From Trypanosoma brucei (Eukaryota): 64,000 nt of DNA. Positions 1-25,500 of this stretch are shown in pieces (position 1 is the stretch's first letter; every line of letters starts with the position of its first letter). The notes beneath the pieces were generated by a model. That model worked only from the letters and a program-made list of their open reading frames with translations, did no database searches and was not told the DNA's origin. Location: positions 2,464,001 through 2,528,000 of the forward strand of contig CM000207.1 of NCBI GenBank assembly GCA_000002445.1, given 5' to 3'. The translations under genes were made by a program, and so were the position numbers.

Positions 1-736
1 GCTGCTCAGTTATGTTTGGGTCCTTCATGTATATAATGGGGAAACCACGGAATATCTCTTCTGCCTTACTTTGTACGACAGGGTTGATAATACCCGGGAC
101 TATTCGCTGTAGTTCGTTTTTGATGCTGCCCTTGAAGATATCTATGATTCCGTTGATAAGGTTGTTGAGAAGCTGCATACCTCGAACAGCAACTGTTACA
201 TTTATTTCTCCAAGTTCAATCATCATATCCCTCACTGTTGCATTGAGCAGACCATCGTTTCTAGCGGATAAGTCCATAGCAAACGATGCATTCGCACCGC
301 GGATATCGGTAGCGGACGTGCCACTAGGGCACAGAAGCGGCCACCAACAAAGTGGACTGTAATAAAACTTAGTTTTTGGCACACTGGCTGCCATGTCCCA
401 CACCGAAACCAAAAGTTTATTCGGGCTCTTCAGTTTGAGGGACATGTTTCCAATCGTTATGTTTGATACCTGCATTTCTTCCAGCTTAATACCTTGCACA
501 CTTTGCTCAGGAACAGTAATGTTTCCGATAAGTTGTCTCAGCACGCGGTGAACCATGGGCACAGCAGAAGTCACGACGGATTCATCAACGGCAAATTTCA
601 CGCTACCGGGTGCGGAAGACACGGGCGCTTCTCCATACTGAATGCCGTGAACCTGACCGGATGCTGCAACAAAATACGGCGCCAGTACCACGGCGACAAA
701 AATTACCGTGTATATTAGAGTTGCAGCTCGTTGCAT
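1..736 (-). CDS. Partial CDS (N-terminal 245 codons; continues beyond window position 1): secreted/surface glycoprotein with cleavable signal peptide and BPI/LBP-like N-terminal barrel pattern (ESAG5-family-like)
   Basis: Manual reverse-complement translation from the ATG at 736-734 gives MQRAATLIYTVIFVAVVLAPYFVAASGQVHGIQYGEAPV... with no stop codon through position 1. It has a hydrophobic signal peptide and at least six N-x-S/T sequons. Its alternating hydrophobic beta-strand pattern (e.g. LLNNLINGIIDIFKGSIKNELQRIVPGIINPVVQ) resembles the N-terminal domain of BPI/LBP-fold proteins. It is absent from the ORF track only because it runs off the window edge. Confidence 0.55.
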   Translation of the reverse strand, partial: MQRAATLIYTVIFVAVVLAPYFVAASGQVHGIQYGEAPVSSAPGSVKFAVDESVVTSAVPMVHRVLRQLIGNITVPEQSVQGIKLEEMQVSNITIGNMSLKLKSPNKLLVSVWDMAASVPKTKFYYSPLCWWPLLCPSGTSATDIRGANASFAMDLSARNDGLLNATVRDMMIELGEINVTVAVRGMQLLNNLINGIIDIFKGSIKNELQRIVPGIINPVVQSKAEEIFRGFPIIYMKDPNITEQ

Positions 737-2364
737 TGATGAACTAATATATATTCGATCTACCCGACGAAAGCCACTACCTACAAAAGTAAGGTGAATT
801 TGTGTTAACCCAAACGGATGTCATACAAGAATCAGTTGCAACAAATAACTGTTGGTACAATCGATAAAAGATAGTGTAAAAATTTCCGAAAGATCATTAA
901 CGGTAAGTGTGTCCACTTCGGCAGGGTAAGTCGACACCGTTTAAAAAGTGAATAATATACAAAAAGAAATATATCACCTTCATCACATACTTACGACTAC
1001 TTGAAGTAACCTTCTAATGGTCATTGTTTGTCATCGATGCTTGACAGTTAAGCTCCGCAAAGTACATCTCGAACAAATATCTAACGAGACAAACAAAATT
1101 AAAAAGACTGGGTTACAACAAAGCGCCGCGTTGAAACAGTGTGGGCTGTCAATAGTTATTCTAACCGAAAAATGTCATGCTCCACCGTATCGAGTGGTGA
1201 CAGCATTGACGTACTGAACACATGTATGGAATAGTAACAACACCTTCCCATACTTCACTTTGTCCCTCACTTTAACGCACTGTATTGTTCATCACCTGAG
1301 CAAACACTCACTTCACTCAACCGACAGGTCTATGCAATATGAGTTAGAATCTAAGAAGCCAGTAGCTAAAATATATGAGAGGGCGTGAAGTCTTCAATGT
1401 CAACAGACGCGGCTCACTGTCATTACCCATTCCGAAACATGTTCATATCAATACCACCACTGTTTACATACCTTTGTCACGTCTTTCAGTGGTATCGCTT
1501 CAAATACAATATTCACTCCTGCTAACTGATGTCACGACAAAACATATTGATGGCGTTAGAGCCGTCGTCATTGCTGTCGCTGCGATTCTTCCCACAGATC
1601 ATAGCTATCCAACCACAAATTCTAGACGGTTTAAAAAAGAGGAAATGACCATGCGATCTTCTCAATAGCAACTGCTCCAGTCACATATTATCGAGAATAC
1701 AACACCCTAAAACATTCCCGTAAAGTAATGGTGTGTGCCCACCTATGACAAATATATTTGAACTCGTTAAAACCATAAGGTTTACATTTTTTAAAAAAAA
1801 AAAGTCATTCGTCCGTAAAGATAGCTTACCAAAGGTTAATGAATAATTGCCACTTTCACATCTCCTTGGCATCCATCATACCCGCTGTTCGTCACTTTCA
1901 GTCTTTTTTCCAGGTCCCCGCGTGGGCGATGGTATTCCTTATGAATCTTCCTCCACAATCCAAAAGTCCACAGGAAGCATGTTGATAATACATCAGCCGG
2001 TAATTCCCTTGATCCCCTCCTTTTTTCAGTAGTAGCCAACCCGCCTTCTGCAGGCAGAGTCGACAGTTGGTCGGTACACCTTTCCTCCTTAGTACTGACA
2101 TTAAATATCCGTAGACGCTTTTAGATGTGTCGAAATATATTGTGTATACGTATACATACGTATGCATATGCATATTACCACATAGTAGGATCGCGCAACG
2201 AGAATTCACCGCAGACATTTCTAAGCAACGCGTTTGTGGCACTTAGCTGCAAGCCTCGCCGGTTTAACCAAATCCACAATGAAATGCGCAAACGTGCCTA
2301 CAGGGAAGCACGTTACCAAAGCTCTCCACGCTCGTAGCACCTTCTGCAGCCCTTGTGTGTGTGT

Positions 2365-2378
2365 GGGGGGGGGGGGGG
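2365..2378 (+). repeat. G14 homopolymer tract (preceded by (TG)n) in divergent strand-switch region
   Basis: Direct count in sequence: gtgtgtgtgtg + 14 G. Confidence 0.9.
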
Positions 2379-5300
2379 CGATCCACCCAGTTGATCCGTT
2401 AGACGTCTCCCCCATTGTTTCTTTCTTTTTTTCCAGCATTGTAATGCCACCACACCCACACACCGGCGGCCACGGCCCCAACAAACTAAAGATCCCATTA
2501 AAATACGTGAGCGCGTGAGCGGCGGCGCACGTCAGCATAACAAGGCGGCGCAAAACTACTTTTATTGCATTACATCGGTTACCAGCGCGTATTTGGCGGC
2601 GTCCATATTTCTCTTTAGTTTCCCTTTCTCAGGGCACCTCGAATGCCCCACTGCGTTTCTTGAGGCGAGCAGGTTGCCTCAGTCCTGCCAATGAAAGTAG
2701 GGCGAAGGAAGGGCACTTCTTCCACCACCTCCAACAGTCAAGCCACTCCGATGTGGCTGAACTGTCGCCGCATTCGCCCCTGATACTTCCACAAAATTTA
2801 TAACAATCACTTCGCCAAACGGCAATAAGACCTGACTGCCCACCGCAGTTGAGGGGACGGGGCCACGCTGCAGCACCGAGGCACTCAAGTCCACCTCGGC
2901 GTTGCCGCGTTCCTCTACCATCTCCGTTACTGGATAGCGGCGGTGGGTCGGCGGAACTCGTTGTTGAAAAATATAAATAGACAGTTTCATGTAGTGGACC
3001 GCCGTAATTGAATCCGGGTGAGTTGTGTTGTGGCCGCAGTTGTTAGGAAAGCGGATTCGCTGCAGCCAACCTGCGGTTTATCCGAAATATCGCACTGTTG
3101 TTGGTCCTCAAACCGGGTCGGGGCGGTGAGGCGGTGGCGCGTGTGCTCAAAGGGGGAATGCCGGTTAATTGGACGCTTACGAGTTTGTGAATATTGACGT
3201 GAAGGCAACTGGTATTGCGATTTTTTGTTGGTAATGTTCTCCCCTCCCTTTCCTTCCTTCCTTCCCATTCCCTCAAGGAGACGGCAGGGGAAATGTCGAG
3301 GGTACGAGTTAGCTGTGGTGATGAACGCTTCAAAAATGTGTCCTAAACTTTTTAGATATCTTACTGCGGAAAGTGTGGTGCAACATAAATACAGTTGCGG
3401 TTAACCCCACACGACTTTGTGTTTTGGGAGGGTGCAAAACAAAAACCAGAGAAGTTTAAGCGCGCCACTACAAATTTAGATGGGACCCACATCCCTTCAC
3501 TTAGCAAATTGCAGCTTATCCCGCAGAACTTTCTGCAGCCTGAATGAAATGACCCTTACCTCGGTTGGATGATCACCGGTTGTGGTGAGTTGCTTCCAAG
3601 CAACTGGGAACCGGCTGATGATCTCGCTTAGGGATTCTTTGTGAAAAGGCGTGGGATCTATGTGACATTTCAGTGTAAAAAGGAAAAAAGAAAGTGGACG
3701 CCACGAAACTTGCCAAGAAAAATATTTGAATGTTAATGGGCAACGCACATTGCCCGCCACAAGATTCCAGTGGAAAAAACAACCAAGTGGTGAATATTTC
3801 GCTATTCTTACTGACAAATATGGGCAATATATTCGAGTGAAAAGTACTTAGCTTTTAAAGGATCTTCATAGTGTATCACTGATGGGCTCCGAGCAGTGAA
3901 TGCCCCCAGCTCCGGCGATAAACGCCGTCAGTGCAAATGGCAGCGCAGTGGATTTATTTTTTTCATGTTGCTGCTAATGTGGAAAGGTATGTAACATCAC
4001 ATGCAATAATGTGTTTTAATTTCGTCATGCAAGGGAGGGGTCATCCGCTTAGCGAAAACAAGCCATCAATGTGTTATCTATAACATATAACTTGTACATA
4101 GTGCGCTCAGGGAAATGGAGGTAAAAAGAAAACATGATATCGGAAGATACGACGCTGTTGTGCCTGGGTGCACAGATGAGTAACGAAACTGCGTTGAAAA
4201 CAGTCGTAACTGTTATTGGACACATAACTTTCAGTGTTTTTTTTTCAAAAATAAAAAACGAATAGTAATGCAGAAAAGTACTGAGTATGCACCACGGGAA
4301 TGGGGCACCAGCTCTGTTGGTTCCATTTTTCGGTTCTACTCAAATGTGTGTTATGTGTTACGAGCAAAAAAAACCGGGGCGAAGTATTGGACATTGTTGA
4401 TACTGTCATCGTGAGGTTCGGAGCGTGGTAATAAACTATTTACCCTCGTCCTAGTGACTGGATCGTTACGGGTGGAAGTAAGATGGTGTCGTTATACCTG
4501 TTTATGTTGGTTCGCTCTCGTGATATCATAATAAGGGATTCCACAATTATTATTATTATTTCGCTGCAGTTTCCCCCTCAGAAGTTGAAAACTCATGTGC
4601 TAAGTTTTCCTCCTCATTAGAGGCACTGTCTAGTGAATTCAAGCGTCGTGTGTGATCCGGTGTTGTGCAAATATGTCGTTGTGAACTTTGTTACCTGCCA
4701 CGAGCTTTCCTATGATATGGAGAACTTCGTAACCGTTGTGCGAATGAGATGAAGTCAATTTACTCTTCCGCTCGGGGTTGGTATTTTTTTTTTTTTTTTG
4801 CATCCCATGGCTTTGTGTCACCATAAATGATTGTGTCGTCCCATTATTTTACCTCTATAGTCGCTTCATTTCTAATGTGATCGTTGAGTTGATGGCCCCT
4901 TATCTTCTCTGTCAATCTTACAATAATCATCCTAGAAAAACTTTTATAGGTGATGATTCATTTCTGCTGTTGTGATAGCAACGACAATGCGAACTCTGCA
5001 ATACCAAAAAACGATTCGGGTGTGTGCTTCGGTAAGGTTATGAAGGAAGGAATGTAATTAACGTTTTGGTCCGTAAATGAACGTTCTCATCTTTGGCGTG
5101 TCCCAACACTCAGAGACTTCGATTCAGTTATGTATGCCATAAGTTCATTTGCATATGAAAAGATGTCGAATTAATGTCTAGTGGTTCTTGTGCTTTGTTC
5201 AACCATTCATTCGATCTTTCGGAGCACTCTGCACAATACTTCACTTTCGGTTTATGATATGTGCCCTTCTCCATCTGTCCTTGCTACTATGTTGCTCACT

Positions 5301-6643
5301 TGGAAATTTGGATCATAGTTGCAGTTCAATTCTTTCTCACATTTTTTTCCATGGCACGACGGCTGCCGTCCGTTGGCGTGATTTATCCTCTTGATGTCCA
5401 AATCCTAATCGTATTTCTAACCTTATAATGGTGGTTGTGGTGCTGTGTGGACATACTGACCGGCAGTGCATAATACCAATTGTGTACGATGTTTTGCATT
5501 GTTTATTTATTTTGAGCGTTAATTGGACCGAATACCTGTACCACCAGACCCATCCAAGGCTCACATGCTGTTCGGTCATGAGAAAAGTTTATGGTGCACT
5601 ACAGCGGAGGTGTTTGTGATATTTTCGGTGCAGATGTTTTACCGGTGACTTTCGGCAATTGTTGCTGTTGTCAAAAGCTTTTTGCACGCTCCGCGAGGGG
5701 ACTGATATGTGATATCTCTCACGTCGGTAGGTGTGCTGCTACCGGTTATGTGCAAAGTGATACCTGTATCAAATTTGACTGCTTGTTTGTAGTCTGTAGT
5801 ATTTGAGTTTGCTCATGGAGAGTTGTTGCTTGTTTGGTTTTAATTCGATCGTGTTTAACTTCTCCCTCAGCTAAGAGTGATGTATGAACTGGAGTATATG
5901 GGATTACCTGCGTGTGTGCGGCTCTCCTTTTTTATCCTTTACCTTTCCATCACGGCTATAACACCACTACTCAAATGCAGTTTTCTCCAGTGCGATGGGG
6001 ATATATGATTGCTCGCGTAGCCATCATTGGCATACTTTTTTTGCTGGGTAAACGCAGCGCGTTCCATTACCATAATCAGATGATGCGTATTTGATCAGCG
6101 CTGTTTATATCTATCCCCCGGTAGCTTCCTCCCTATAAATGAATCATGATGCAGCACAGTTTTTGTTCCTTAGGTTCACCTGCCATATTTGGTAGATTTT
6201 CATCACACATGTTCTAAAAGGGGGATTGTAGTGTTACGCATGCAAGTTCTTGTGTAGACGTTGGCATATGGAATATCAAGTGGCTGTTGCTGCTATTTTC
6301 AGGGGAAAAAAAAAAAAGAAACGTCATCACATGGTAGCGTTAACGTGACAGACGCCAGAGAAGGGAGGAAAAAAAATCAGTCCAAGTAAACAATAAGGAG
6401 CAGCGAGGTGGGAAGTTGTTAAAGGAAAAGGTGAAGCAGTGTTACGCGTGGTCTACTTTTGGTACATATGAGCGGCACTGCCGACGCATTATATACGCGC
6501 ATCAGATGGTATCCCCATGAAGAAACTCTGCGTTTGGGATTCAAAAAAGAACTTTTCACAACACATCTGGTGACAAATTGGTGCGTTGCGAAGAGTTATG
6601 CGCAGTAAAAGGAACATTTTGTGTCTTTAATAGTCCCGCTGTT

Positions 6644-6655
6644 GGGGGGGGGGGG
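6644..6655 (+). repeat. G12 homopolymer tract in divergent strand-switch region
   Basis: Direct count in sequence: gctgttGGGGGGGGGGGGattg. Confidence 0.9.
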
Positions 6656-8101
6656 ATTGTTAAATAAGTGTTTCTGGTGAGGTAAGATACATTACATAAT
6701 TGAACCACAGAAGGGAAATTGAGTAGCGTATTAAAAATTCTTCATGATATGTGTAAGTTCGGCTGGATTATCATCCTACTGAAATCATGTGACATGGATG
6801 ATGTTTGTGATTCGATGTGCTAAGTGTGAGGTGAGGTCATGCCTTGTTGTGTAATACCACATGGACATTCGGTCAATGTTTTTTTTTTTCGAACGGGTTG
6901 AAAAAAGAGCGCTCGCATGCACATCAGGTTTGTAATCACTGCAACGAATGCTTTATTGTGATTGAGAAGCGCGCATTGAGTGGGAGAGTACAACTCTCTA
7001 TCTCTCTCTGTGTGCGTGTGTTATGCGTGCTAAAGTGTATTATGTTCTATAACGGTGTCGATGGTGGCGCTCTGACAGCAGTGTCTATATATCACCGCAG
7101 TGGGTGTTGTGAACACGTGTGTATGTCCTTTGTGTTTTCAACTGAATTGTTGTGTTTGTTAGATAAAACTTTAAGAGTTCGTGTTCCATTAGTTGCACTG
7201 GAGAACTTCTCTAGCAATCGATGAAAGCGGTGATGTTGCTTGATTTCAAATGCTCATGCGACCAATGTGGAGCATTCGGTTGAGAAATGAAATACCCTTT
7301 TGTTTCTCTGTTTCTGGTGTGTAAAAACGCAGTGTGCTTACGGTGTCTCCTCGTGCCTCCTTTGTCTTTGCAAAAAAAAAAAAGACGTTGCACTTGACTT
7401 GTTTCCGGTTTTTGGCACATGTTGGGTTGAGAGTGAAAAGTAATGGGTAACTGGATATATCTTCCTTTTTTATCTAGGGGGGAAAAACAACTGTATGCGA
7501 GGGGGCTTAGTGTTATTATTTCATTGGAAAGTGGTTGACGGGTACTTGCCGGCGTGTGGTGCAAATTGTTTCCTTGCATAGTGCTGGGTGTAATCAGTGG
7601 TGGTATTTTTTTTTCCAAATGACGGGTGTGCACAAGGAACGAGTAGTAAGAGTGAAATACGGAGGCATGAGGTTCAGTGGAGCTAAAACTGTGCAGAAAT
7701 TGCTATTGGTCACTACGCCTATGAATTTTAAATGCTCAACTGGTGGGGGTACGGCGCAGGACTCGTGTATTCACTACCCCAAAAAGGTCCCACGAGGGGC
7801 CAACAACAGTGCTTGGAGGTCCGTTGGCGTCTTGTGGAACTCCGAATACACGGATTATGTGCCAAGTAATTTGTACAGTCGATATCTTTGTTTTTAGCCG
7901 CGAGTGCCGAGGCTTGGTCGTTGCGCATGTGCCAACAATCCGGTGGAGCAGCTATGAGCTGCGATACAGGCGCGTGCTTGCGTGCCACATCACTTCCCCC
8001 TTATTTGCCATTTTTTAATTACATAACTAATAGCGGTTCCTAAGGCGTTTTTAGCACCTATTTATTGGCGGCCGGGGCTTGTCCCCTTCTCACCATCACC
8101 A

Positions 8102-9121
8102 ATGCCAGCACCCGCCTCTGATGTTGTGGCTTGCGCCATCTGCTTGGAGCAATGGTCAGATCCTGTAGAACTATTGCCGTGTACGCATATATTTTGCCGA
8201 GGTTGTGTTTCAACTACAACTGTGTGTCCCATATGTCGCGCAGAGGTGACTGGGCGACGTACCGCTAACCGATACTTGGTAGATGCCTCTATGTCCCTAG
8301 TTAAAATGAAGGAACGGGATGAAAAGGCACGCGAGGAGGCGGAAAAATTGCTAAATGAAGTCATCGAGCAATCACAGGGGAAAATGTATAAGCCTACCGC
8401 GGCTGCCGGTGTGGGAGTTAACACACAGCCGCACAACCGGCGGATGAGGGTGGAAACGCTAAGAAGCACGCCTGATTATATTTTTAAGATTATACTCGTC
8501 GGTGATAGTTATGTTGGGAAGACCCGATTCTTGAAGAATCTCGTTGGTGCTATCGGCTTCGGGGATCAATGCGTCACCACCCTCAGCGTTGATGTCGTTA
8601 ATCATTACGTTATCGTTGATGGAAAGACAGTTCAGGTTTTAATGTATGATACTTGCGGCCAGGAACGTTTCCGAGCCATGACAGCACAGTTCTACCGTGA
8701 CGCCCACGGTGCCATAATGGTGTACGACACCACTCAAATTGGGAGTTTCGACAATATCGAAGTGTGGTTCTCGCAGCTCAACAGTTTTGGTTGTGAAAAT
8801 ACGAGCAAAATACTTGTCGGAAATAAATGTGATCTCCCCGAAAGAAGGGCCGTTGAAATTGGGCGGGCCAGAGCCCTGGCCGACAAACTGGGCGTTCCCT
8901 TTATAGAAACGAGCGCAATGACTGGTGCCGGAGTTGCCGTAGCAGTTGAGGCCTTAGTGAGAATGATTATGAGACAACAACCTGTTCCACTAGCCAGCCA
9001 ATGGGCAGGCAGTAAAAGCGGACATAGAAATGCAGTCAATTTGGAAAGACCCCGCCGGGAGAACGGCACCGGCAGACGGTCTGAGAGGAGCCAGAGAAAT
9101 GATAATTGTTGCTGCCAATAA
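8102..9121 (+). CDS. RING (C3HC4) zinc-finger / Rab-like small GTPase fusion protein, 339 aa, C-terminal CCCQ cysteine motif
   Basis: True ATG start preceded by a polypyrimidine tract (cttgtccccttctcaccatcacc). The N-terminus CAICLEQWSDPVELLPCTHIFCRGCVSTTTVCPICR is a C3HC4 RING. After a charged coiled-coil-like linker comes a complete Ras-superfamily G domain. Its motifs are G1 GDSYVGKT, switch I TLSVD, G3 DTCGQE, G4 GNKCD and G5 ETSAM. The overall similarity is to Rab1-type GTPases (KIILVGDS..VDGKTVQVLMYDTCGQERFRAMTAQFYRDAHGAIMVYD). The C-terminus ...NDNCCCQ is a candidate prenylation site. Confidence 0.85.
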   Translation: MPAPASDVVACAICLEQWSDPVELLPCTHIFCRGCVSTTTVCPICRAEVTGRRTANRYLVDASMSLVKMKERDEKAREEAEKLLNEVIEQSQGKMYKPTAAAGVGVNTQPHNRRMRVETLRSTPDYIFKIILVGDSYVGKTRFLKNLVGAIGFGDQCVTTLSVDVVNHYVIVDGKTVQVLMYDTCGQERFRAMTAQFYRDAHGAIMVYDTTQIGSFDNIEVWFSQLNSFGCENTSKILVGNKCDLPERRAVEIGRARALADKLGVPFIETSAMTGAGVAVAVEALVRMIMRQQPVPLASQWAGSKSGHRNAVNLERPRRENGTGRRSERSQRNDNCCCQ

Positions 9122-9532: not shown

Positions 9533-10720
9533 ATGCAGTGTCTCCGCTTCGTCGATGGTAAAAAGTGTTCAGTCAACACAGTGGGTGCATCCCTTTCTGC
9601 AGTGGCATGCGTGGTGGCGTTTATAGCCTTCATTGCTGAAATTAATTCTGAGGGTTGGCAATATAGGGGGAAGGTATGGTTAGATGCACCAACTAGTCGG
9701 CGAGTCCCATTTAGGAATCCGAGAGTCATTTTTGTTGTTGTTCAGACCCGACCCTCTCCAGGTTGGTGCAGAATGTTGATGACTGCTGTTGTCACGAATG
9801 TTTCTGTAATTTCTATTGGTATGGGTGGGAATTACAGTCACACCATCCGGGCAAACTGGTTATTGAACTTCTTGGATGATGAGGGTCTCCATGATGATGA
9901 TGTGTTAGTTATGTTTGATGGTGCGGACACATTCTTCACTGATGAGATCAATCGAAAAGAGATGCTAGACCCGTTCATAAAAATGTCTCCCCCACTGCCC
10001 AAATTCTTTAACCAAACGGCTATATACAGAGGTGACGCTTGGCCGCCCATGCTTCACATGGCAGAACCAGATTGTTATGCTCCCCAGTTGAACATCACAT
10101 ACAACCCGCAAAATGAGTCGCATTGGGATCGATGCGCAAGGTTTTACGCCATGGGCCTGTCAGAAGCGAAAACATTCGGTGCTGAGCGGCTTCTGGGGTT
10201 GCCACCTCCCGTGCGTGGACACCTCAACAGTGGAGGAATTGTGGGCCGGGTATGGGCGTATAAAGAGGCCTTTAATGTCTATTTAAAGTTCAGGGAGACA
10301 TCCTCTAAATGGTGGTGCGATCAGACCATGTGGACAATACTTTTCATTTGGAGCGCAGGAAATGCAACGGGTGTGGATCCCAAATACATAATACGGCGTG
10401 GAATAATTAGTCTTGACTATGACAAGAGATACTTTTACTACCCAACAGCGGCGTACAACACGCGTGCGATGATCGGCCACTTCACAGGAAATCCCCACCA
10501 GTGGTTACGGTATCTCCCGAAGTACTTTACTCGCCTTCCTTGGTATAGGAACCTTGCGGGAAACAGTACCTACAGGCAGAGTGTCGTGGAAGCATTACGA
10601 AATACGACCGTCATAACTTACAAATACACCCGGGAGAAGGTTTTGAAAAGTTATGAGGATGTCTGCAACGTTGAAGAAATGACCGACCCCGACTTCGTGG
10701 TCGACCCACTGGATAAGTGA
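9533..10720 (+). CDS. Hypothetical type II membrane protein (N-terminal signal-anchor, luminal domain with DxD-like FDGAD motif; possible Golgi glycosyltransferase)
   Basis: True ATG start. Pyrimidine-rich tracts upstream (9235-9270, 9412-9430) are consistent with a trans-splice acceptor. A short basic N-terminal tail is followed by one hydrophobic span (LSAVACVVAFIAFIA). The 395 aa ORF has no internal stops, and the luminal part carries multiple N-x-S/T sites. The function assignment is inference only. Confidence 0.6.
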   Translation: MQCLRFVDGKKCSVNTVGASLSAVACVVAFIAFIAEINSEGWQYRGKVWLDAPTSRRVPFRNPRVIFVVVQTRPSPGWCRMLMTAVVTNVSVISIGMGGNYSHTIRANWLLNFLDDEGLHDDDVLVMFDGADTFFTDEINRKEMLDPFIKMSPPLPKFFNQTAIYRGDAWPPMLHMAEPDCYAPQLNITYNPQNESHWDRCARFYAMGLSEAKTFGAERLLGLPPPVRGHLNSGGIVGRVWAYKEAFNVYLKFRETSSKWWCDQTMWTILFIWSAGNATGVDPKYIIRRGIISLDYDKRYFYYPTAAYNTRAMIGHFTGNPHQWLRYLPKYFTRLPWYRNLAGNSTYRQSVVEALRNTTVITYKYTREKVLKSYEDVCNVEEMTDPDFVVDPLDK

Positions 10721-13945: not shown

Positions 13946-13957
13946 GGGGGGGGGGGG
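13946..13957 (+). repeat. G12 homopolymer tract inside an ~800 bp purine-rich (+ strand) block
   Basis: Direct count: ggtgtGGGGGGGGGGGGagagg. It sits within the 13250-14060 block, which is strongly A/G-rich on the + strand. Confidence 0.9.
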
Positions 13958-16583: not shown

Positions 16584-18032
16584 TTACTGTGACTCATCTT
16601 TCGGGAGAGCCGAATTGACACCCAGGGCACACATACATCCAGCAAAGATACCAAACAGCAGTGAACTAACGGCCCAGTTGGCTGCTAGAGAACGTTCGCC
16701 AGCGGTCGTCAGCGAACCAGTACGCGGCGCGTAGACTCCCGCTAGACCCCCCACGTAGCCATACGTGAGCGACCAGAGGAAGCAAAGAATATAAGGGAAT
16801 GTCGTGCCCTTAATCACACTGTATGCGCAAAGCACAATTGGAATGACGAGCAACAAACGCGCAAACGTCCCAATCACCACAAAGAGCGGTGATGCGTGCA
16901 GAGTCTTGAACTGAACGAAAAGGCGCGCCACAAAATCTCCCAAGTTAAACATCATCGGAATGATCACCATATACCAGCCGTTGTCATCCGGCCCCAGTTT
17001 GACAGCAAAGAATACACCAGGGTAGATGAGGAAGGCGGTAAAGAACGCAATAAAGCACACGGCTAACATGGGCCAAACACGCCTGAACACAGACAACGCA
17101 CTCGCCTTCAACATCTGTTGCGAGTTCGTGATATTCTCAACCTGGTCCGTGTCCCTCATCGTGTCAGGGTCTACAGTGGAAGTCATCACGTTGCTCTTGC
17201 CCGCGTTGCAATCCGCTTTCAAATCGTCATCCTGGTCGGCCGGACCCTTTCCTAAGCTACTCGGTTCATTATCATCTCCAGCGTCATCACCTTCAACAGC
17301 ATTCCCTTTCCTCGCCGCGTAACGAAAGTCTGCTGTATACTTCATGGCGTAAGGGTTCTTCCTCAGCAGCAGCAGAAGACCACAAGAAATCGACTGCATA
17401 ATCATGACCAACCCAAAGTATATGCGTGACTGAGTGAGCCTACTCGCGACGCGGTCTTCTGTACGCTTGAAGTTACTCTCCGTGGAAGCTTTAATAACAA
17501 TCGCAAACGTCGACGTGATAACACCACACACTGAAACACCCCACACGTACGCACTCAAAAACTTCGTTGGAAAGGGACCGGCAAGTGCAACGGCACCGGA
17601 GCTGCAAAGTGCAGTGGAAGCTCCGTTTATCAAACCAATCAGTATAATGGTTACCCTGGCACCGGTTTCCGTTGTTTTTCCGATGGTAACCATCATCACA
17701 GAAAATACTAAGATAATCGGAAAGACAAGACCAATATAGAGGCGAAGGGTTATGGGAATCCGCTTTCCAAAGTTTGTGAGCATCAGTGACACTACCAAAC
17801 ACTCCACAATAAACGTCGTCGCAAGATAGTACGTGAAGACATTTTTCCAGAAAAATTTCTGCTCTTCCGTCTCCAGCTTGATGTTCTCGCCATCCTTGGC
17901 CGCGAAAAGGTAGAACTGGAGGAAGAACTCCAGGAACGACAAGACCGTGTTCGACACCACCATCACCGACATCCCAAAACACATGAAGGTGATATAGGCA
18001 AGGAGTTCATGCACAGAACCGAAGCCAAGCAT
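16584..18032 (-). CDS. Equilibrative nucleoside transporter (ENT/SLC29 family) of the kinetoplastid nucleoside/nucleobase transporter type
   Basis: The track ORF (16584..18068) starts at TTG; the first in-frame ATG is at 18032 (MLGFGSVHELLAYITFMCFGMSVMVV...). There are about 11 predicted TM helices, with a large hydrophilic acidic loop between the TM6 and TM7 equivalents (EGDDAGDDNEPSSLGKGPADQDDD...). This is the standard ENT topology. The N-terminus resembles the conserved MLGF... start of trypanosomatid NT/AT transporters (from memory, not verified). Confidence 0.85.
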   Translation of the reverse strand: MLGFGSVHELLAYITFMCFGMSVMVVSNTVLSFLEFFLQFYLFAAKDGENIKLETEEQKFFWKNVFTYYLATTFIVECLVVSLMLTNFGKRIPITLRLYIGLVFPIILVFSVMMVTIGKTTETGARVTIILIGLINGASTALCSSGAVALAGPFPTKFLSAYVWGVSVCGVITSTFAIVIKASTESNFKRTEDRVASRLTQSRIYFGLVMIMQSISCGLLLLLRKNPYAMKYTADFRYAARKGNAVEGDDAGDDNEPSSLGKGPADQDDDLKADCNAGKSNVMTSTVDPDTMRDTDQVENITNSQQMLKASALSVFRRVWPMLAVCFIAFFTAFLIYPGVFFAVKLGPDDNGWYMVIIPMMFNLGDFVARLFVQFKTLHASPLFVVIGTFARLLLVIPIVLCAYSVIKGTTFPYILCFLWSLTYGYVGGLAGVYAPRTGSLTTAGERSLAANWAVSSLLFGIFAGCMCALGVNSALPKDESQ

Positions 18033-19134: not shown

Positions 19135-19574
19135 TTTTTTTGAGGGTGGCCATTTTTTTTTTTTTGAGATAGTTACTTGTGCTTCTTATACGCACTTATA
19201 AAACACACCGGTGTTAGGTCTCGATCTTCTCGCGTTTTCGTTGACTGACCGAGTGACTGTATTCCTTTCCATGCATTGCTCTGTGAGGTGAAGTCCCCTT
19301 GTTGTTGTAGCGCGAGGGTAACGCATGAAGCGGTGAGTTTTTTTTAATCGTTTTTATACCAACGAGGAATGCAACTTTACGTTTGTATTCATCAGCACAT
19401 GGGCGGATTATACCAACTTCATTCGAGTTACCCCATCTTTATATATATATATATATTTCGCTACGTGTGAGCAACCTCCGAAATTTGAGGGTTCTTTGGA
19501 TATGTGATAGCTTCAAATGCGCTATTACTAACGTGGACTAATTTTACCTAGGATCGTAGTTTTTTTTTTGATTT

Positions 19575-19585
19575 CCCCCCCCCCC
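19575..19585 (+). repeat. C11 homopolymer (G11 on minus strand), preceded by T9
   Basis: Direct count: tttttttttgatttCCCCCCCCCCCtgcg. Confidence 0.9.
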
Positions 19586-20734
19586 TGCGTTTCTAGCCCC
19601 ACTTACCCTCACAACTCCTTCAGTCCATCACACTCAAGTAAATGAGCAGATGACTCGTCCCGGCGCCCAGTTGTCAATTTGCTTCAAACGTTCTTCCAAC
19701 CCCGGCAGTGCACCATCCTTATTTTGCATACACAAGTTATCAGGCATTTCCTCACCCACCCCCTTATCAAATGTGCGGTTACACCTGAAACGGCTTCTTT
19801 CTGTCTTGTTATTGTTGTTTTAAGCAAAATGTACGCCTATGTTTTCTGTTGTATTGCTTTCCCAGTGCTTGATGGAATCCAATGCTCCAAAACAACGTAC
19901 GGAAACACCCTACACCGCTTTACAGTGTTTTGGGACGGTGGACAGATTCTTTCTTGCAAAAATATTCGTATAAAGAGTATTATTACTATTTCCCCCCGAG
20001 TGCCCCTGTGGAACTGTGTGTGATTACTGCATGGTAGTCGCCTGCTAATTAATGACAGGATTACCAATTTCCCAGAGGGGGCGCGGAGTCGTAACTACAT
20101 TGTGGAAAAAGTACTAACCCGTAAAAATACGGTAGGAGAGATGATCAGCACCGCAGTGTTTTGTACGGGTATCCAAACTTCCGAAGACCTTTGCATTCCC
20201 TGGGAATTTTGTTAACTACCCAAAACCACAGGTGGGTGAAGGGAAAAAAAAAACAGACTCACATACCCAAGCCGTTTTATACCTTTGTTATATTACTTTG
20301 TGCCACAGGCAAAACGTTAGTTACAAGCCATTGTTACCTTTTCCATCAATTACATCATTGTGGTATCAGCAGTCTGCAATTAATTTTCCTGAAGCGCACT
20401 GTCTGAATTTTCGTTTGCCAGCGCCTATTAAAGCGGTGCTATAACACCGGCACCGCGTACGGCTATACGTAGCGGCATTCGAGAGCCTTGTTTTTTGTTC
20501 ACGGGTTTGACAGGGCTGGACACTCACATAAATTCTTTAATTAAAGCATAAGGTGCTTTGCGTCCTCGTTGATTTCGTTAGACAGTGGACGCGACATATT
20601 CCCCATGTACTTCACAGCAAAAAACATCATTTCGCCAGGCGCCTCCGTGAATATCAGCGATGGCACCACAAACACACACGCACACACAGAGACAGAACAC
20701 TCCACAGTCGCTTGTATAACTTGGGGTCAAGTGG

Positions 20735-21501
20735 TCAAGTGGGTGGAATGCACTCGCTGTCTTCCTCCACATATTGTTCCTTAAATCGCTGACAGAAATT
20801 ATTAAGCGCAATTTTGTCCACCTCGTGATGCAGGAAGTGCTGCTGGAGCTCGCAAGCAATCTGTATGGTGGCAAACTGGCTCTTATCCGTTGTCATGAGC
20901 GAATTCTCAACAGCTTTAACTTCGGTGCATTCGGACTTGACGATCAGTGAGCGGATCACTTCGGTGATGTGTCGCAACGGCATCGGGCATCAGCTCAGGG
21001 TGTCCAGCTCCCAATGTCAGTGAGCATAATTGTCACGGGTTTTATTGGCCCCTTCGACTCACAGTCGTTACCACGACTGTAGCGCAACAACCGAATCTGC
21101 ACCACCAACAGCACTTCCACAAGCATCAGCGTAATGACAGACACAATAATAAAACCTGTGAGCTGCGCAACAGTGAGTTTGTCTCCGTCAGAATCGAAAT
21201 CCTTTATAGTCGGTGTAACTGGGGACGTAAGCGGCGGCAGTGAAGGGTTCAAAACGCGTGCTACGAACCAAAGGGAAATGCGCATCGCGCCACAATTTAA
21301 CAAAAAAAACTCTCTCTTCAGTACCTTCACGACTGCACTTGAACAAGACACAGATGCGTCACGTGCGAAAAACAAGGAGAGATGCCGCATCCTCAAGCGT
21401 ATACCGTACGCTGCAGAGCAGAAGACGTTTATACGTTCCATACTTCTGTTCGCTGTGGGGTGAACACAGTCCATATTGTACATGAAAAACGTCCGTGTCA
21501 A
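20735..21501 (-). pseudogene. Possible frameshifted gene for a small single-pass membrane protein (two adjacent minus-strand ORFs of 168 and 82 aa in different frames)
   Basis: The ORFs 20995..21501 and 20735..20983 abut, separated by a frame change. One hydrophobic span (LTGFIIVSVITLMLVEVLLVV) is present. No recognisable family. Confidence 0.25.
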
Positions 21502-22004
21502 CTGAATCTCTGTGATAATGCGATTATTTAACGCGTAAACCGCGCTGAAACATAGAGAGGATTTTCATAGTGACGACGCCTCTTCCCTGGAAAAGTCTTA
21601 GGTCAGCAACACTCAAAGGGATATCCGACATGACATTCGCCTGCACGCCACTGCTAAATTGAGATAAACCTAAAACCGAAGGGGCCGTGATTTTGAGCGC
21701 ATCCAATGGCACCAGTCTTGTGTTGCTTAGTCATTTCCACAAATGGAAGCGTTACGCATGGCATCACACGACGCTCGAGTTACAAAAGTTGTGCAATGTC
21801 AACCCATTGCTCACAGCGCAATAATTCAATAAAACCACTTCAACTATTAATTATCGCTTTTCCAAGCCATAGCACAAACGAGCAAGTCACATAATTTTTT
21901 TTGAGCACCTCACCCAACACAGCCATCGGTGGACTTCTTGATATCTGTTTGTGCACTGTGCTCACTCTCACACGAGTGGTGTGTCCAGAGCGACTGATGC
22001 ACCT

Positions 22005-22015
22005 CCCCCCCCCCC
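22005..22015 (+). repeat. C11 homopolymer (G11 on minus strand)
   Basis: Direct count: gcacctCCCCCCCCCCCtcctcc. Confidence 0.9.
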
Positions 22016-22519
22016 TCCTCCGTCATGACAGGGGTGGAAAATATCAACCTCTTGGAGCCCCCTCTCTGTATTTCAAATTAACGCTAGATAGCATCCTTGT
22101 CCACCTTCCCAATAACAAAGAAAAACAATAACGACCCGACCAAGCACTCTTGACGCGTGCACCATACCACAATAAAATGGTTTCCTGAGGAAGCCTGTTT
22201 GGTCACACGGTCGTGTGGTTCTTAGGCAAAATATTCACCTCTGAAGAAAGACTGTGGAAGCCTTCTTTCCATTGGACAGGAAACACAAGTGAGTAATAAT
22301 TATTGCACTATTGCTCGCCAGCAGCAGTGCGTACGTTTCGTTATATTTCCGAATGAATCAAAATACTTCTCAAAGTCATTCGTACACAGAGAACAAGCAG
22401 ACCATCGAGCTCATGGCAACAAGTATTTCCATGAGAGCAGAAAAATCCTGACAAAGAACAAGCACCAGTCCCCAACCCAAAACTGAGCGACAAAATAGTG
22501 TACAACAGTCAGCCAGAAA

Positions 22520-22528
22520 GGGGGGGGG
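22520..22528 (+). repeat. G9 homopolymer
   Basis: Direct count: agaaaGGGGGGGGGcagttg. Confidence 0.9.
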
Positions 22529-25500
22529 CAGTTGCAGCCGGATTACCAGCGCGGCGTTGACTATTAGATACTCCTTGTGCAGAGAAAAGGCAAAAAAGCT
22601 GTGATTGGCACTCCGCAGGTGACATTAAGCGAATACCGTATTTGAGTTCCATCACATAAGCTACATCAGACCACGAAAATATGAAATACGCAGCTCCCAG
22701 TTGCATCAAGGAACCGCTAACATCACTCCAATCACGCCCCATCCTCAAATGTGTTTGTGTGAATGGCGTCAAATCGATGGCATCCATGGTATATGTGCAA
22801 TCCCATCCGAAGTAAAAATAATAATTCGGAACATCTACATTTATTTGTTTAAAATTTAGAAGGACATTCCGTTCTACTGCTACGACAGTAGCTATCGATA
22901 CTACACGCTGCGCTAAACTATTAAACAGTGTAACACACGTCAAAGTAATAGAAAGTGTTCTCTCACGCACCTACCTTTCACCAGAGAAATGTGACGTCCC
23001 GCAGCTGCTCGTGTGAAGACAACATATCGCATTCAGCTTCTAAAGCTGAAGGGATGGAGCGAAAACGACCTGACCGCTTGCCTTCTCACCTACTCCACCG
23101 TGATATTTTAGAAAATAAAAATGTTCATAAGTATTGTTAGCGCACACAAAAACTGCGTGCGACAACGAGCATCGGGAGAATAATATTAAAAATACTGCAT
23201 CGAATCCATGAGACTTTGAACAGAAACATCACACTACTTTGTTGTCGTTCAACCGGACTCGAAGTCAGTTTCGTTTCACAACGCATCCATGACCCAATAG
23301 ATGAGTATCATACCTGGCATTCACGATGATGTTTCCACACTCCTAATACTGCCGCAGTATTTTGGTCTTTGTATCCACCTGCGAATCAATTGAAAATAGC
23401 ATACATCCAGAATTATGAAGATGATAAGGTACAGTTGATATACACTATTCCTTCTTAACGTGAGGGTGACTGTGTTCACACTAGGCGTCACATGACTACC
23501 CTGCAACTCTCAGGTGCGAAGTGGCGCTGTTACCAACACGCAAAAAAAAAAACTCTCAACAGACGGTCTCATTCCTTCCTTTCAGAGAGAAGATGTGTCG
23601 GCTGTTGTTGAACTGTTTCAAGTATATGACACCTAAGAGCACATTGAATTGGCACCTAATTTTTTCCTCGTAATATCCGATGGAGGCAGTCACCGTAGAC
23701 ATGATATGAAAAACGCAGACACGTAACACCAAGAATGCCGTTGCACCGGTGAGCGAACTTTTACGATCACCAAACTGCACCTGTGGCTTAGACCATAAAA
23801 TTCAAAGGTGCTACATATTTTTAGAAGCTTTAAATACGATGCAAAGTGGAAGAATCGTTGCTTCCTACCGCTGGTTGGTAAAGCCGCATTACTGAATTTA
23901 TCACGAGTAACGCACAGTAACTGCTACCTCATACACTTAAGGGGAGCAGTACATATGATCCTCCCTCCTGAGTATTCGCTATGAATAACCACAGTAACGC
24001 CTGCTTCATTAGGTGATTGTCTCTGGTACCAACGGCCAGTGCACTATGATAAGCCAAATGATTCGTCAAATGGTTGGTAACATTTCATCTGCGTTCCTTT
24101 ACATCGTCAGCACAATGCATACATGCTGTTGCAAAACACTGTATGCGTAAGAGCAGTCACCGAATACATCACAACTTGAAGGTATAATAATAAGCATATG
24201 CATTTACCGAGGTACTACATCTGTCATCCCTTTGTTTGACATAGCACAGTAAATACTGCTGAACAATCCAGGAGCACAAAGAAAAATTTTTTAAAAATAG
24301 TATTTTTTTTTCCAGGCTCAGCAGACATTAATATCATTTGCATGCCACACACATTTGTAAGAATGTCACACCCACATGTATATGTTTATCAAAAACACAA
24401 AGATGAAAGAGGATAGCAGAGCCACATCCATCAGTCGCTATTCCAGTGGTCATAAAATAACTACATACGATAAGAGTCTATCTCCAATGCATCTTATCGA
24501 AAGTTCAACTGTACCCACTAGGCAACTGCAAGCACAGAAAAGAGGGAAGTGGCACAAAGCCGAAGATGCGCCCGTGCAGCAGCCTCAGACAACCGTTACT
24601 TATGCAATGCAACACAAAAAAGCTTCTCCTAGCTTGATGGAGCAGAGAACACTTTTAGTCCAAACTAATATAGGCAGAAAAAAAAAAAAGCAATGTACGA
24701 ACTCAATAATACACACCAAACAGCGACCCAACACAAAATGCAAGACATACATAAAGCCACCGAAGCTGATGGCAGGTTGAAACGTCATATGCTTCGTTTT
24801 GTTTTTCTTTTATCACCTCTTAGAGGCCCGTAAAATATCCATCCACTTGAATAGAACCACATGATAACATGAACTCACGCAGGAGAAGTTTCAGACACTT
24901 TTGCATATTTGAATATCCACATGAGATTATTCGCACCAACAGGAGTCAACAAGTTTCCCACTAAACGCCATGCCGCAAGTGCGAGCAGACGCTACGAGTG
25001 CCCCGTAGAGAAGTGCCTTTGCACGTTGCAACGTGCAACACTTTGTATTCCTACAAATGGGAATAGAGAAGGTTATAGTATTTAAAAAGTAGGTCTCGGA
25101 TAATGCTACTTCCACCTCGGGTTGTATTCAGTGAATTGCTCCTAAGATATTTGCAACGACATGAACAAACAAGTGGTTCGGACCCTACCCACACCGTTCT
25201 ACAATATGCCTAAATTAGTTTGTCCATCAATTTCCTCTCGCGGACTGCATATTCACCCTCATCTTGCATGTTTCAACACTCGTACCTTCACTTTCAGTAC
25301 GCTACTGTGTCTCTTGTATCTTTTATGCATTTTTTATCATTTATGGGTAGACTTCGTGTGAGTTTAAGGTTTAAAAAATTGCTTCTTTTTCCATTTTTTC
25401 CTTATGCTAAATTCAGCGCATCGCCCATATCATGAAGAACTCGCAGGAATGTCACGCATCTAAAATGTGTACCACACGCAAAACATGGAGCAATACATGC

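What the first reader, a model, noticed from the sequence alone, without database searches (positions are those of the whole stretch)
737..8101. Gene-free 7.4 kb divergent strand-switch region carrying G14 and G12 runs
The leftmost gene is on the - strand (1-736) and the next gene is on the + strand (8102), so this interval is a divergent strand-switch region. It has no credible ORF but carries two long guanine homopolymers (G14 at 2365-2378, adjacent to (TG)n; G12 at 6644-6655) and a T16 run at 4784-4799. In T. brucei, RNA pol II transcription start regions at divergent strand-switch regions have been reported to contain G-runs as essentially the only recurrent sequence feature. The orientation here (G on the + strand, upstream of + strand genes) fits that description.
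Basis: partly seen in the sequence, partly recalled or inferred. Interest (0 to 1): 0.5.

Follow-up and report, generated by a model that had tools for sequence, protein, structure and literature searches.

The report
Known trypanosome transcription start region
This 7.4 kb gap between two diverging genes on Trypanosoma brucei chromosome 9 is an ordinary RNA polymerase II start region, and its long G runs are the G/T-rich tracts already published as typical of such regions.

Summary
The window is T. brucei TREU927 chromosome 9 (Tb927_09_v5.1:2516867-2580866). The interval lies between ESAG5 (Tb927.9.15890, minus strand) and RAB1B (Tb927.9.15930, plus strand). G14, G12 and T16 are at the stated coordinates, and five runs of 11 or more G are present where shuffles predict about 0.01 matches.

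In Wedel et al. 2017, G10 is the top coding-strand 10-mer at the 5' end of 199 start regions. (TG)nG-type words also rank high there. The (TG)5-6 G14 C element contains eleven such words.

Strand composition switches at about 2.9 kb. A Bdf3 (start-site chromatin reader) CUT&RUN peak lies at 4483-4883, inside the interval.

Caveats:
- A 34-codon annotated sORF sits at 4953-5057.
- T16 is better read as a trans-splicing polypyrimidine tract.
- Run lengths differ between subspecies (G14 versus G6), so exact length is not conserved.
- A third G12, at 13946, lies at a convergent switch with no Bdf3 peak.
- Kolev et al. 2010 list no transcription unit starting here.

Interest is low.

The parts
1..736 (-). 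5' part of ESAG5-like gene Tb927.9.15890 (BPI/LBP-like), the first gene of the leftward unit
   Evidence: Translation. Weak PF01273 match. Coordinates from Table S4 of PMC9241505. The 485-aa orthologues are called in L001 and L002.
737..8101 (.). Divergent strand-switch region, read as an RNA polymerase II transcription start region
   Evidence: Flanking genes diverge. The skew switch is inside it. Bdf3 peaks lie inside it. No Pfam, tRNA or Rfam content.
2354..2379 (+). (TG)5-6 followed by G14 then C: the 5'-most GT-rich plus-strand patch and proposed 5' edge of the rightward start region
   Evidence: Sequence. Eleven exact matches to Wedel Dataset EV1 10-mers start between 2353 and 2370, which gives bin 2001-3000 the highest plus-strand count in the window. 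It is the first plus-strand patch with at least 90% G+T over 30 nt.
2449..2466 (-). Weak GT-rich patch on the minus strand (GGTGTGTGGGTGTGGTGG), about 70-100 bp right of G14
   Evidence: Read. It has no exact Dataset EV1 10-mer and does not reach 90% over 30 nt. Any function is inferred only.
2895..2925 (.). Compositional strand-switch point (minimum of cumulative G+T and G-C skew)
4483..4883 (.). Bdf3 CUT&RUN consensus peak, reported as 400 bp around the summit; a 'high-confidence' dynamically occupied site
   Evidence: Tb927_09_v5.1:2521349-2521749 in Tables S1, S3 and S4 of PMC9241505, converted using the offset 2516866.
4784..4799 (+). T16 run, read as the polypyrimidine tract of a trans-splice acceptor (first AG at 4859-4860)
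   Evidence: The role is inferred from its position 93 nt (AG to ATG) upstream of the annotated sORF.
4953..5057 (+). Annotated 34-codon sORF Tb927.9.15905
   Evidence: Coordinates and translation. It is intact in three other subspecies assemblies, but all four observed differences change an amino acid.
6644..6655 (+). G12 run on the coding strand, inside the rightward start region
   Evidence: It is G9 in T. equiperdum and GGGGGAGGGGGG in T. b. gambiense.
8094..8494 (.). Second, weaker Bdf3 consensus peak at the start of RAB1B
   Evidence: Tb927_09_v5.1:2524960-2525360 in Table S1 of PMC9241505.
8102..9121 (+). RAB1B (Tb927.9.15930), a RING finger + Rab GTPase; first full gene of the rightward unit
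9533..10720 (+). ESAG3-like gene Tb927.9.15940
   Evidence: Exact match to EAN77399.1 of TREU927. Coordinates.
13946..13957 (+). Third G12 run, at the end of the rightward compositional unit and not near any Bdf3 peak
   Evidence: The cumulative skew maximum is at 13971. The nearest Bdf3 summit is 5.7 kb away.
19575..19585 (-). G11 on the minus strand, about 1.5 kb upstream of the nucleoside transporter gene and 314 bp from a Bdf3 summit
22005..22015 (-). G11 on the minus strand, 327 bp from a Bdf3 summit, in the second start-like region

Best explanation
The interval is a divergent RNA polymerase II transcription start region at the core/subtelomere boundary of T. brucei chromosome 9.

Rightward transcription feeds a short unit (sORF Tb927.9.15905, RAB1B, ESAG3) that ends compositionally at about 14 kb. 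Leftward transcription feeds ESAG5 and the genes beyond it.

The G14 (with its TG repeat) and G12 runs are local instances of the coding-strand G/T-rich tracts that characterise these dispersed promoters. (TG)nG14 marks the 5' edge of the rightward start region.

Proposed action (inferred): rigid homopolymer and GT tracts disfavour nucleosomes, favour an open H2A.Z/acetyl-histone/Bdf3 chromatin domain, and bias initiation towards the strand on which they read G/T. The effect depends on composition, not on an exact motif or run length.

T16 acts later, as a polypyrimidine tract for trans-splicing.

Shown here: locus identity, divergent orientation, skew switch, exact matches to published start-region 10-mers, a published Bdf3 peak, and run-length polymorphism.

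Inferred: that initiation actually occurs here, where it begins, and that the runs contribute causally.
For: - Locus identity and gene orientation.
- Cumulative G+T skew has its minimum at 2895 and rises to 13971.
- All five plus-strand patches with at least 90% G+T lie between 2349 and 13964. All six minus-strand patches lie between 17954 and 25822, matching gene orientation.
- Wedel Dataset EV1 gives G10 as 132 versus 17 (coding versus non-coding strand) in the 5'-most fifth of 199 start regions, and also lists (TG)nG words. Eleven of these words start between 2353 and 2370.
- Synthetic GT-rich promoters drive orientation-dependent transcription and H2A.Z deposition, and are nucleosome-depleted. 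Wedel et al. attribute the depletion to long G and T homopolymer stretches.
- Bdf3 consensus peaks map to 4483-4883 and 8094-8494. In that study 76% of divergent strand-switch regions lie within 5 kb of a Bdf3 peak.
- The two minus-strand G11 runs lie about 0.3 kb from Bdf3 summits, upstream of a minus-strand gene.
Against: - Table S14 of Kolev et al. 2010 (units inferred from 5'-triphosphate RNA in procyclic cells) lists no unit starting at this region. Its last chromosome 9 entry ends at Tb09.244.2380.
- G14 lies about 500 bp on the 'leftward' side of the skew minimum.
- It lies 2.3 kb from the nearest Bdf3 summit. Within the first 30 kb the five long runs are no closer to Bdf3 summits than random positions (P = 0.64).
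- Run lengths are not conserved: G14 is G6 in T. b. gambiense and T. equiperdum, and G12 is G9 or interrupted.
- One G12 (13946) sits at a convergent switch with no Bdf3 peak.
- Divergence between TREU927 and gambiense across the interval (about 2.25 per 100 bp) shows no strongly conserved island.
- No H2A.Z, H4K10ac, Pol II or nascent-RNA data for this locus could be read.
Confidence: 0.7

Rival explanations
1. The G, T and TG runs are neutral by-products with no role in initiation. On this view they are mononucleotide and dinucleotide microsatellites that grow by replication slippage in unconstrained DNA. Their strand bias would come from transcription- or replication-associated mutational asymmetry (G over C and T over A on the coding strand).
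For: - Lengths vary freely between close relatives: G14/G6/G6, G12/G9/G5AG6, G12/G6/G6, and T16/T12/(TA)5T6/T10. Gambiense has G11 where TREU927 has G6A5.
- A G12 lies at the convergent end of the unit with no Bdf3 peak.
- The runs show no fine-scale co-localisation with Bdf3 summits.
- Divergence across the interval is close to that of other non-coding flanks.
Against: - Synthetic promoters built from exactly these G/T-rich 10-mers drive orientation-dependent transcription and H2A.Z deposition.
- G10 is concentrated in the 5'-most fifth of start regions (132, against 7-27 in the other fifths), which a uniform transcription-linked mutation bias does not predict.
- Short G seeds of six or more are retained at the same positions in all assemblies compared.
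Confidence: 0.22
2. The interval is not a productive Pol II start site, or only a stage-restricted one. On this view it is boundary chromatin between the chromosome core and the ESAG/VSG-rich subtelomere, and the Bdf3 signal reflects a broad acetylated domain, not initiation for these genes.
For: - No unit from this region appears in the Kolev procyclic-form list.
- Bdf3 peaks are dense across about 43 kb here: twelve consensus peaks from 2503881 to 2546596.
- The flanking genes are ESAG-like, and RAB1B is listed as down-regulated in procyclic forms.
Against: - Diverging genes must each be transcribed from within or across the interval.
- The annotated plus-strand sORF at 4953 implies plus-strand expression by 4.9 kb, if that annotation rests on expression data; its basis could not be checked.
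- The Bdf3 site is a replicated consensus peak.
- Composition switches strand inside the interval.
Confidence: 0.1
3. The G runs act mainly through non-B DNA on the non-template strand. This would be G-quadruplex or R-loop formation, or marking of an ORC-bound replication origin at the strand-switch region, and not nucleosome exclusion.
For: - The G tracts are on the non-template strand of the rightward unit.
- The literature links G4 motifs and R-loops to T. brucei start regions and some origins (abstracts: 10.1101/357020 listed, PMC13179062, PMC3607257).
Against: - A single G14 or G12 cannot supply four three-G tracts with loops, which needs 15 nt, so at best a two-tetrad structure forms.
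- No origin or R-loop data for this locus were read.
- The runs shrink to G6 in sister subspecies.
Confidence: 0.08
4. The interval hides an unannotated gene, pseudogene, retroelement relic or structured RNA, and that is the real reason for its size.
For: - 7.4 kb is large.
- Other annotations call small ORFs here: 103 aa in gambiense, and 122 and 92 aa in T. equiperdum.
- The kilobase at 3501-4500 has only 10 substitutions where about 22 are expected.
Against: - No Pfam match for any of the 44 ORFs.
- No tRNA or Rfam match.
- No internal or window-wide repeats.
- All four sORF differences between subspecies are non-synonymous.
Confidence: 0.05

Closest known systems
GT-rich dispersed Pol II promoters / transcription start regions of T. 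brucei (Wedel et al. 2017, PMC5579346; G-run observation of Siegel et al. 2009, recalled from memory because the paper is not held)
   Same: - It lies between diverging genes.
[quoted passage not shown]
- The G10 and (TG)nG words are exactly those ranked highest at the 5' end of 199 start regions.
- A start-site chromatin reader peak is present.
   Different: - H2A.Z boundaries and primary-transcript 5' ends were not seen for this locus, and it is absent from the Kolev 2010 unit list.
- No comparable G run is present on the leftward (ESAG5) side within the window.
- The rightward unit is very short, about 2-3 genes.
75 bp sequence-specific Pol II core promoters of T. brucei (Cordon-Obras et al. 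2022, Cell Rep 38:110221)
   Same: Same genomic context: strand-switch regions that drive polycistronic units in an orientation-dependent way (as described).
   Different: The paper and its motif are not in the held library, so the presence of such an element here could not be tested.
Poly(dA:dT)/poly(dG:dC) nucleosome-excluding tracts at eukaryotic promoters
   Same: Long rigid homopolymers lie in a promoter region. Oligo-dG and oligo-dA stiffness is invoked for T. brucei nucleosome-depleted regions.
   Different: Nucleosome occupancy at this locus was not examined. Here the tracts are strand-biased relative to transcription, which simple exclusion does not require.
Mononucleotide microsatellites
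   Same: Homopolymers of 12-16 nt whose length differs between close relatives.
   Different: Their strand and position follow the transcription-unit layout. Genome-wide they are concentrated at the 5' ends of start regions.

Membership tests
T. brucei divergent Pol II transcription start region (dTSR) | Lies between two protein-coding genes or units that point away from each other | tested here: met
   ESAG5 lies on the minus strand at 1-736 and RAB1B on the plus strand at 8102-9121.
T. brucei divergent Pol II transcription start region (dTSR) | Enrichment of start-site chromatin (H2A.Z, H2B.V, H4K10ac, bromodomain factor Bdf3) | tested here: met
   Met for Bdf3 only, from published tables. 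Consensus CUT&RUN peaks map to window 4483-4883 (high-confidence set) and 8094-8494. H2A.Z, H2B.V and H4K10ac data for this locus were not available.
T. brucei divergent Pol II transcription start region (dTSR) | G-over-C and T-over-A skew on the coding strand, with GT-rich or G-run 10-mers concentrated at the 5' end | tested here: met
   The skew minimum is at 2895. Twelve plus-strand Dataset EV1 10-mers fall in 2001-3000, eleven of them in the G14 element. GT-rich patches segregate by unit.
T. brucei divergent Pol II transcription start region (dTSR) | Primary (5'-triphosphate) transcript ends mapping to the region | tested here: inconclusive
   Kolev 2010 Table S14 lists no unit starting here. 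That study used procyclic cells and genome version 4, and RAB1B is listed as down-regulated in procyclic forms. Raw data were not available.
T. brucei divergent Pol II transcription start region (dTSR) | The fragment drives orientation-dependent reporter transcription | not testable with these tools
   Needs a luciferase or nascent-RNA assay with, for example, 2300-2500 in both orientations.
75 bp sequence-specific Pol II core promoter (Cordon-Obras 2022) | Match to the published promoter sequence elements | not tested
   The paper is not held, so no motif was available to scan with.
Intramolecular G-quadruplex motif | Four G tracts of at least three G, separated by short loops (15 nt or more in total) | tested here: not met
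   G14 and G12 are single tracts shorter than 15 nt with no neighbouring G3 tracts in register. Only two-tetrad or intermolecular forms are conceivable.
Mononucleotide microsatellite | Long homopolymer with length polymorphism among related genomes | tested here: met
   G14 versus G6 and G6; G12 versus G9 and G5AG6; G12 at 13946 versus G6; T16 versus T12, T10 and (TA)5T6. Caveat: the T. equiperdum assembly (L001) contains several N gaps and may not report homopolymer lengths accurately.
Protein-coding gene, pseudogene or structured RNA inside the interval | Detectable homology to a protein or RNA family | tested here: not met
   None of 44 ORFs matches Pfam. No tRNA. No Rfam family at threshold. 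The only annotated feature is a 34-codon sORF.

The most novel reading that the evidence does not exclude
G-run length at start regions may be a fast-mutating tuner of initiation.

In TREU927, three separate runs in this 14 kb stretch are expanded relative to sister subspecies: G14 versus G6, G12 versus G9 or an interrupted tract, and G12 versus G6. Gambiense has expanded a different one (G11 versus G6A5).

If tract length sets nucleosome exclusion or H2A.Z loading, such slippage would give heritable, strain-specific differences in the output of small boundary units such as RAB1B-ESAG3. That would be transcriptional variation in an organism thought to lack it.
Probability: 0.08. Interest if true: 0.45.

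Novelty: already known. Interest (0 to 1): 0.14.

Why it matters
It matters little beyond annotation. The locus is a clear worked example of the published G/T-rich, strand-biased signature of trypanosome Pol II start regions, with supporting chromatin data in the literature.

Two small points add something:
- Run lengths are highly polymorphic between subspecies. This argues that composition, not an exact motif, is what is maintained.
- One equally long G run sits at a convergent switch without start-site chromatin. A long G run alone is therefore not diagnostic of a start site.

Tried and rejected
- An exact look-up of the 339-aa RAB1B product found nothing. The GenBank TREU927 model is a 276-aa version. 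Identity came from the ESAG3 protein instead.
- tRNA scan, Rfam at gathering and E-value thresholds, a Pfam scan of all 44 six-frame ORFs, and searches for long direct or inverted repeats were all negative for the interval.
- The sigma-70 promoter and intrinsic-terminator scan is a bacterial model. It gave counts equal to shuffles and is irrelevant here.
- Siegel et al. 2009 (PMC2682952) and Cordon-Obras et al. 2022 are not held. The original G-run statement therefore rests on memory plus Wedel's citation of it, and the 75 bp promoter could not be tested.
- The origin of the sORF annotation could not be traced. The ribosome-profiling annotation paper that I suspected as its source is not held.
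- Converting genome version 4 coordinates from the Kolev 2010 tables to version 5.1 was not resolved. Only the gene-ID-based unit list was used.
- I expected a minus-strand GT-rich mirror element at 2449-2466. It has no exact Dataset EV1 10-mer and falls below the 90% threshold, so it is listed only as a weak patch.
- A genome-wide count of G runs in start regions versus other DNA was not possible. No tool gives access to the rest of the T. brucei genome.
- The two remaining large protein-database searches were not spent on the small ORFs of the interval, because the answer would not change the verdict.

Full report
**Identity of the locus.**
- The plus-strand ORF at 9533-10720 is identical to EAN77399.1, an ESAG protein of T. 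brucei brucei TREU927.
- The RING + Rab protein at 8102-9121 is 98% identical to its T. equiperdum orthologue.
- Table S4 of PMC9241505 gives Tb927_09_v5.1 coordinates for the neighbouring genes. These coordinates fix the window as Tb927_09_v5.1:2516867-2580866, so window position = chromosome position - 2516866.
- ESAG5 (Tb927.9.15890) ends its minus-strand ATG at window 736.
- RAB1B (Tb927.9.15930, named) is at 8102-9121 and ESAG3 (Tb927.9.15940) at 9533-10720.
- A nucleoside transporter (Tb927.9.15980) lies at 16584-18032 on the minus strand, and an ESAG4 pseudogene fragment at 20995-21483 on the minus strand.
- From about 41 kb onward the window is a VSG (pseudo)gene array.
- The finding therefore sits at the boundary between the chromosome core and the subtelomere.

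**The observation.**
- G14 (2365-2378, preceded by TG repeats from 2354), G12 (6644-6655) and T16 (4784-4799) are exactly where stated.
- Across the window there are five runs of 11 or more G, counting both strands. Dinucleotide-preserving shuffles give 0.01 matches to G11 against 10 observed.
- The interval has no recognisable gene content. No Pfam match was found for any of 44 six-frame ORFs of 60 aa or more. There are no tRNAs, no Rfam family at threshold, and no long repeats.
- The one exception is an annotated 34-codon sORF, Tb927.9.15905, at 4953-5057 on the plus strand.
- This sORF is intact in T. b. gambiense and in two T. equiperdum assemblies. All four differences seen are amino-acid changing, so there is no sign of purifying selection.

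**Is it a strand-switch and start region?**
- Cumulative G+T skew falls from position 1 to a minimum at 2895 (G-C minimum at 2925). It then rises to a maximum at 13971 and falls again to about 26.5 kb.
- Composition alone therefore defines a leftward unit up to about 2.9 kb, a rightward unit from about 2.9 to 14 kb, and a second leftward unit from about 14 to 26.5 kb. This agrees with gene orientation.
- Patches with at least 90% G+T over 30 nt segregate perfectly. All five plus-strand patches lie between 2349 and 13964, and the G14 element is the first of them. All six minus-strand patches lie between 17954 and 25822.
- Published Bdf3 CUT&RUN data were aligned to this same genome version.
- Within the interval they place a consensus peak at window 4483-4883 and a weaker one at 8094-8494. 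The first belongs to the 268 'high-confidence' dynamically occupied sites.
- Further peaks lie at window 19694-20094, 21483-21883, 22605-23005, 25077-25477 and 29330-29730.
- Bdf3 is a bromodomain factor that localises to start sites. In that study 76% of divergent strand-switch regions lie within 5 kb of a peak.

**Are the G runs the published signature?**
- Dataset EV1 of Wedel et al. 2017 lists 10-mers at least six-fold enriched on the coding strand of 199 start regions.
- GGGGGGGGGG is first, with 132 coding-strand against 17 non-coding-strand occurrences in the 5'-most fifth and 7-27 in the other fifths.
- GTGTGTGTGG (18:1), TGTGTGTGGG (12:1), GTGTGTGGGG (11:1), GGGGGGGGGC (10:1) and TGTGTGGGGG (6:1) are also listed.
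- Scanning the window with all 157 words gives twelve plus-strand hits in the 2001-3000 bin, the highest plus-strand count of any 1 kb bin. Eleven of them come from the (TG)nG14C element, and three more come from G12.
- Wedel et al. showed that synthetic promoters assembled from such words drive orientation-dependent transcription and H2A.Z deposition. These promoters are nucleosome-depleted, which the authors ascribe to long G and T homopolymer stretches.
- The finding is thus a clean instance of a described feature, not a new one.

**T16.** The T16 run is followed by its first AG at 4859-4860, 93 nt before the sORF ATG. It is best read as a polypyrimidine tract for trans-splicing. That is an inference from position.

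**What weakens a strong functional reading.**
- Run lengths are labile:

| Run in TREU927 | T. b. gambiense DAL972 | T. equiperdum |
|---|---|---|
| G14 (2365) | G6 | G6, with two extra TG units |
| G12 (6644) | GGGGGAGGGGGG | G9 |
| G12 (13946) | G6 | G6 |
| T16 (4784) | (TA)5T6 | T12 or T10 |
| G6A5 (about 7477) | G11 | not examined |

- The T. equiperdum assembly contains several N gaps and may not report homopolymer lengths accurately.
- The G12 at 13946 lies at the convergent skew maximum. It is 5.7 kb from any Bdf3 summit.
- The five long runs are confined to the Bdf3-rich first 23 kb (P about 0.03 against random placement in the whole window). Within the first 30 kb they are no closer to Bdf3 summits than random positions (P = 0.64). 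The association is regional, not point-like.
- G14 lies about 500 bp left of the skew minimum, and no comparable G run exists on the leftward side.
- Kolev et al. 2010 inferred Pol II units from 5'-triphosphate RNA in procyclic cells and list none starting here. RAB1B is listed as down-regulated in procyclic forms, which may explain this, but the point stays open.
- Divergence between TREU927 and gambiense across the interval is about 2.25 substitutions per 100 bp, against 1.4-1.5 in the RAB1B and ESAG3 coding regions. There is no strongly conserved island.

**Conclusion.**
- The most likely reading (about 0.7) is a divergent Pol II start region in which G, T and TG tracts on the coding strand are part of a composition-based, dispersed promoter. 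(TG)nG14 marks the 5' edge of the rightward start region.
- The main rival (about 0.2) is that the runs are neutral microsatellites shaped by strand-biased mutation.
- The phenomenon is already in the literature, so novelty is nil and interest is low.
- The only mildly new angle is strain-specific expansion of these tracts, which could be tested as a possible tuner of initiation.

Noticed in passing
window 1-736 (and L002 1898-2633): The 5' part of the ESAG5 coding region differs from T. b. gambiense at 10.6 substitutions per 100 bp, with 68 in the first 500 bp. The adjacent non-coding DNA shows about 2-3 per 100 bp. T. equiperdum is 99.8% identical here. This suggests gene conversion from another ESAG5 copy, or diversifying selection.
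   Followed up: no
window 8102-9121: RAB1B is a RING-finger + Rab GTPase fusion. In a search of 5.8 billion proteins, the only full-length hit among the 120 best listed was the T. brucei-group cluster; the others covered only about 45-64% of the query, consistent with the Rab part alone. The older GenBank TREU927 model (276 aa) lacks the RING part.
   Followed up: partly
window 13946-13957: A third G12 run, also preceded by GTG repeats, coincides with the cumulative G+T skew maximum at 13971. This is the convergent end of the rightward unit, and no Bdf3 peak lies within 5.6 kb. It is a counter-example to 'long G run = start site'. The run is G6 in the other assemblies.
   Followed up: partly
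window 19500-25500: A second start-like region carries four Bdf3 consensus peaks (summits about 19894, 21683, 22805, 25277). It has two minus-strand G11 runs (19575, 22005), each about 0.3 kb from a summit. It lies upstream of the minus-strand nucleoside transporter gene and contains an ESAG4 pseudogene fragment.
   Followed up: partly
window 27504-29730: The Bdf3 peak with the highest tag counts among those listed for the window (29330-29730) lies just after a degenerate leucine-rich-repeat protein pseudogene, which is split over two ORFs at 27504-28133 and 28151-29017. This is where GC content drops to 31-35% ahead of the VSG array.
   Followed up: no
L001 11748-13908 (versus window 9677-10718): The T. 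equiperdum scaffold carries an extra ESAG3-like segment, 86% identical, between RAB1B and the orthologous ESAG3. It is flanked by N gaps, so it may be a real duplication or a scaffolding artefact.
   Followed up: no
window 3501-4500: This kilobase, just upstream of the Bdf3 summit, has only 10 substitutions against T. b. gambiense, where about 22 are expected from the interval average. It has no ORF or RNA-family match. It could be chance or an unrecognised constrained element.
   Followed up: no
window 41000-64000: This is a plus-strand array of VSG genes and pseudogenes. Pfam VSG A-type and B-type domains match at 41424-42395, 54642-55166 and 59984-61339. GC content peaks recur at intervals of roughly 3-5 kb. 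The array contains no runs of 9 or more G or C and no Bdf3 peaks.
   Followed up: no
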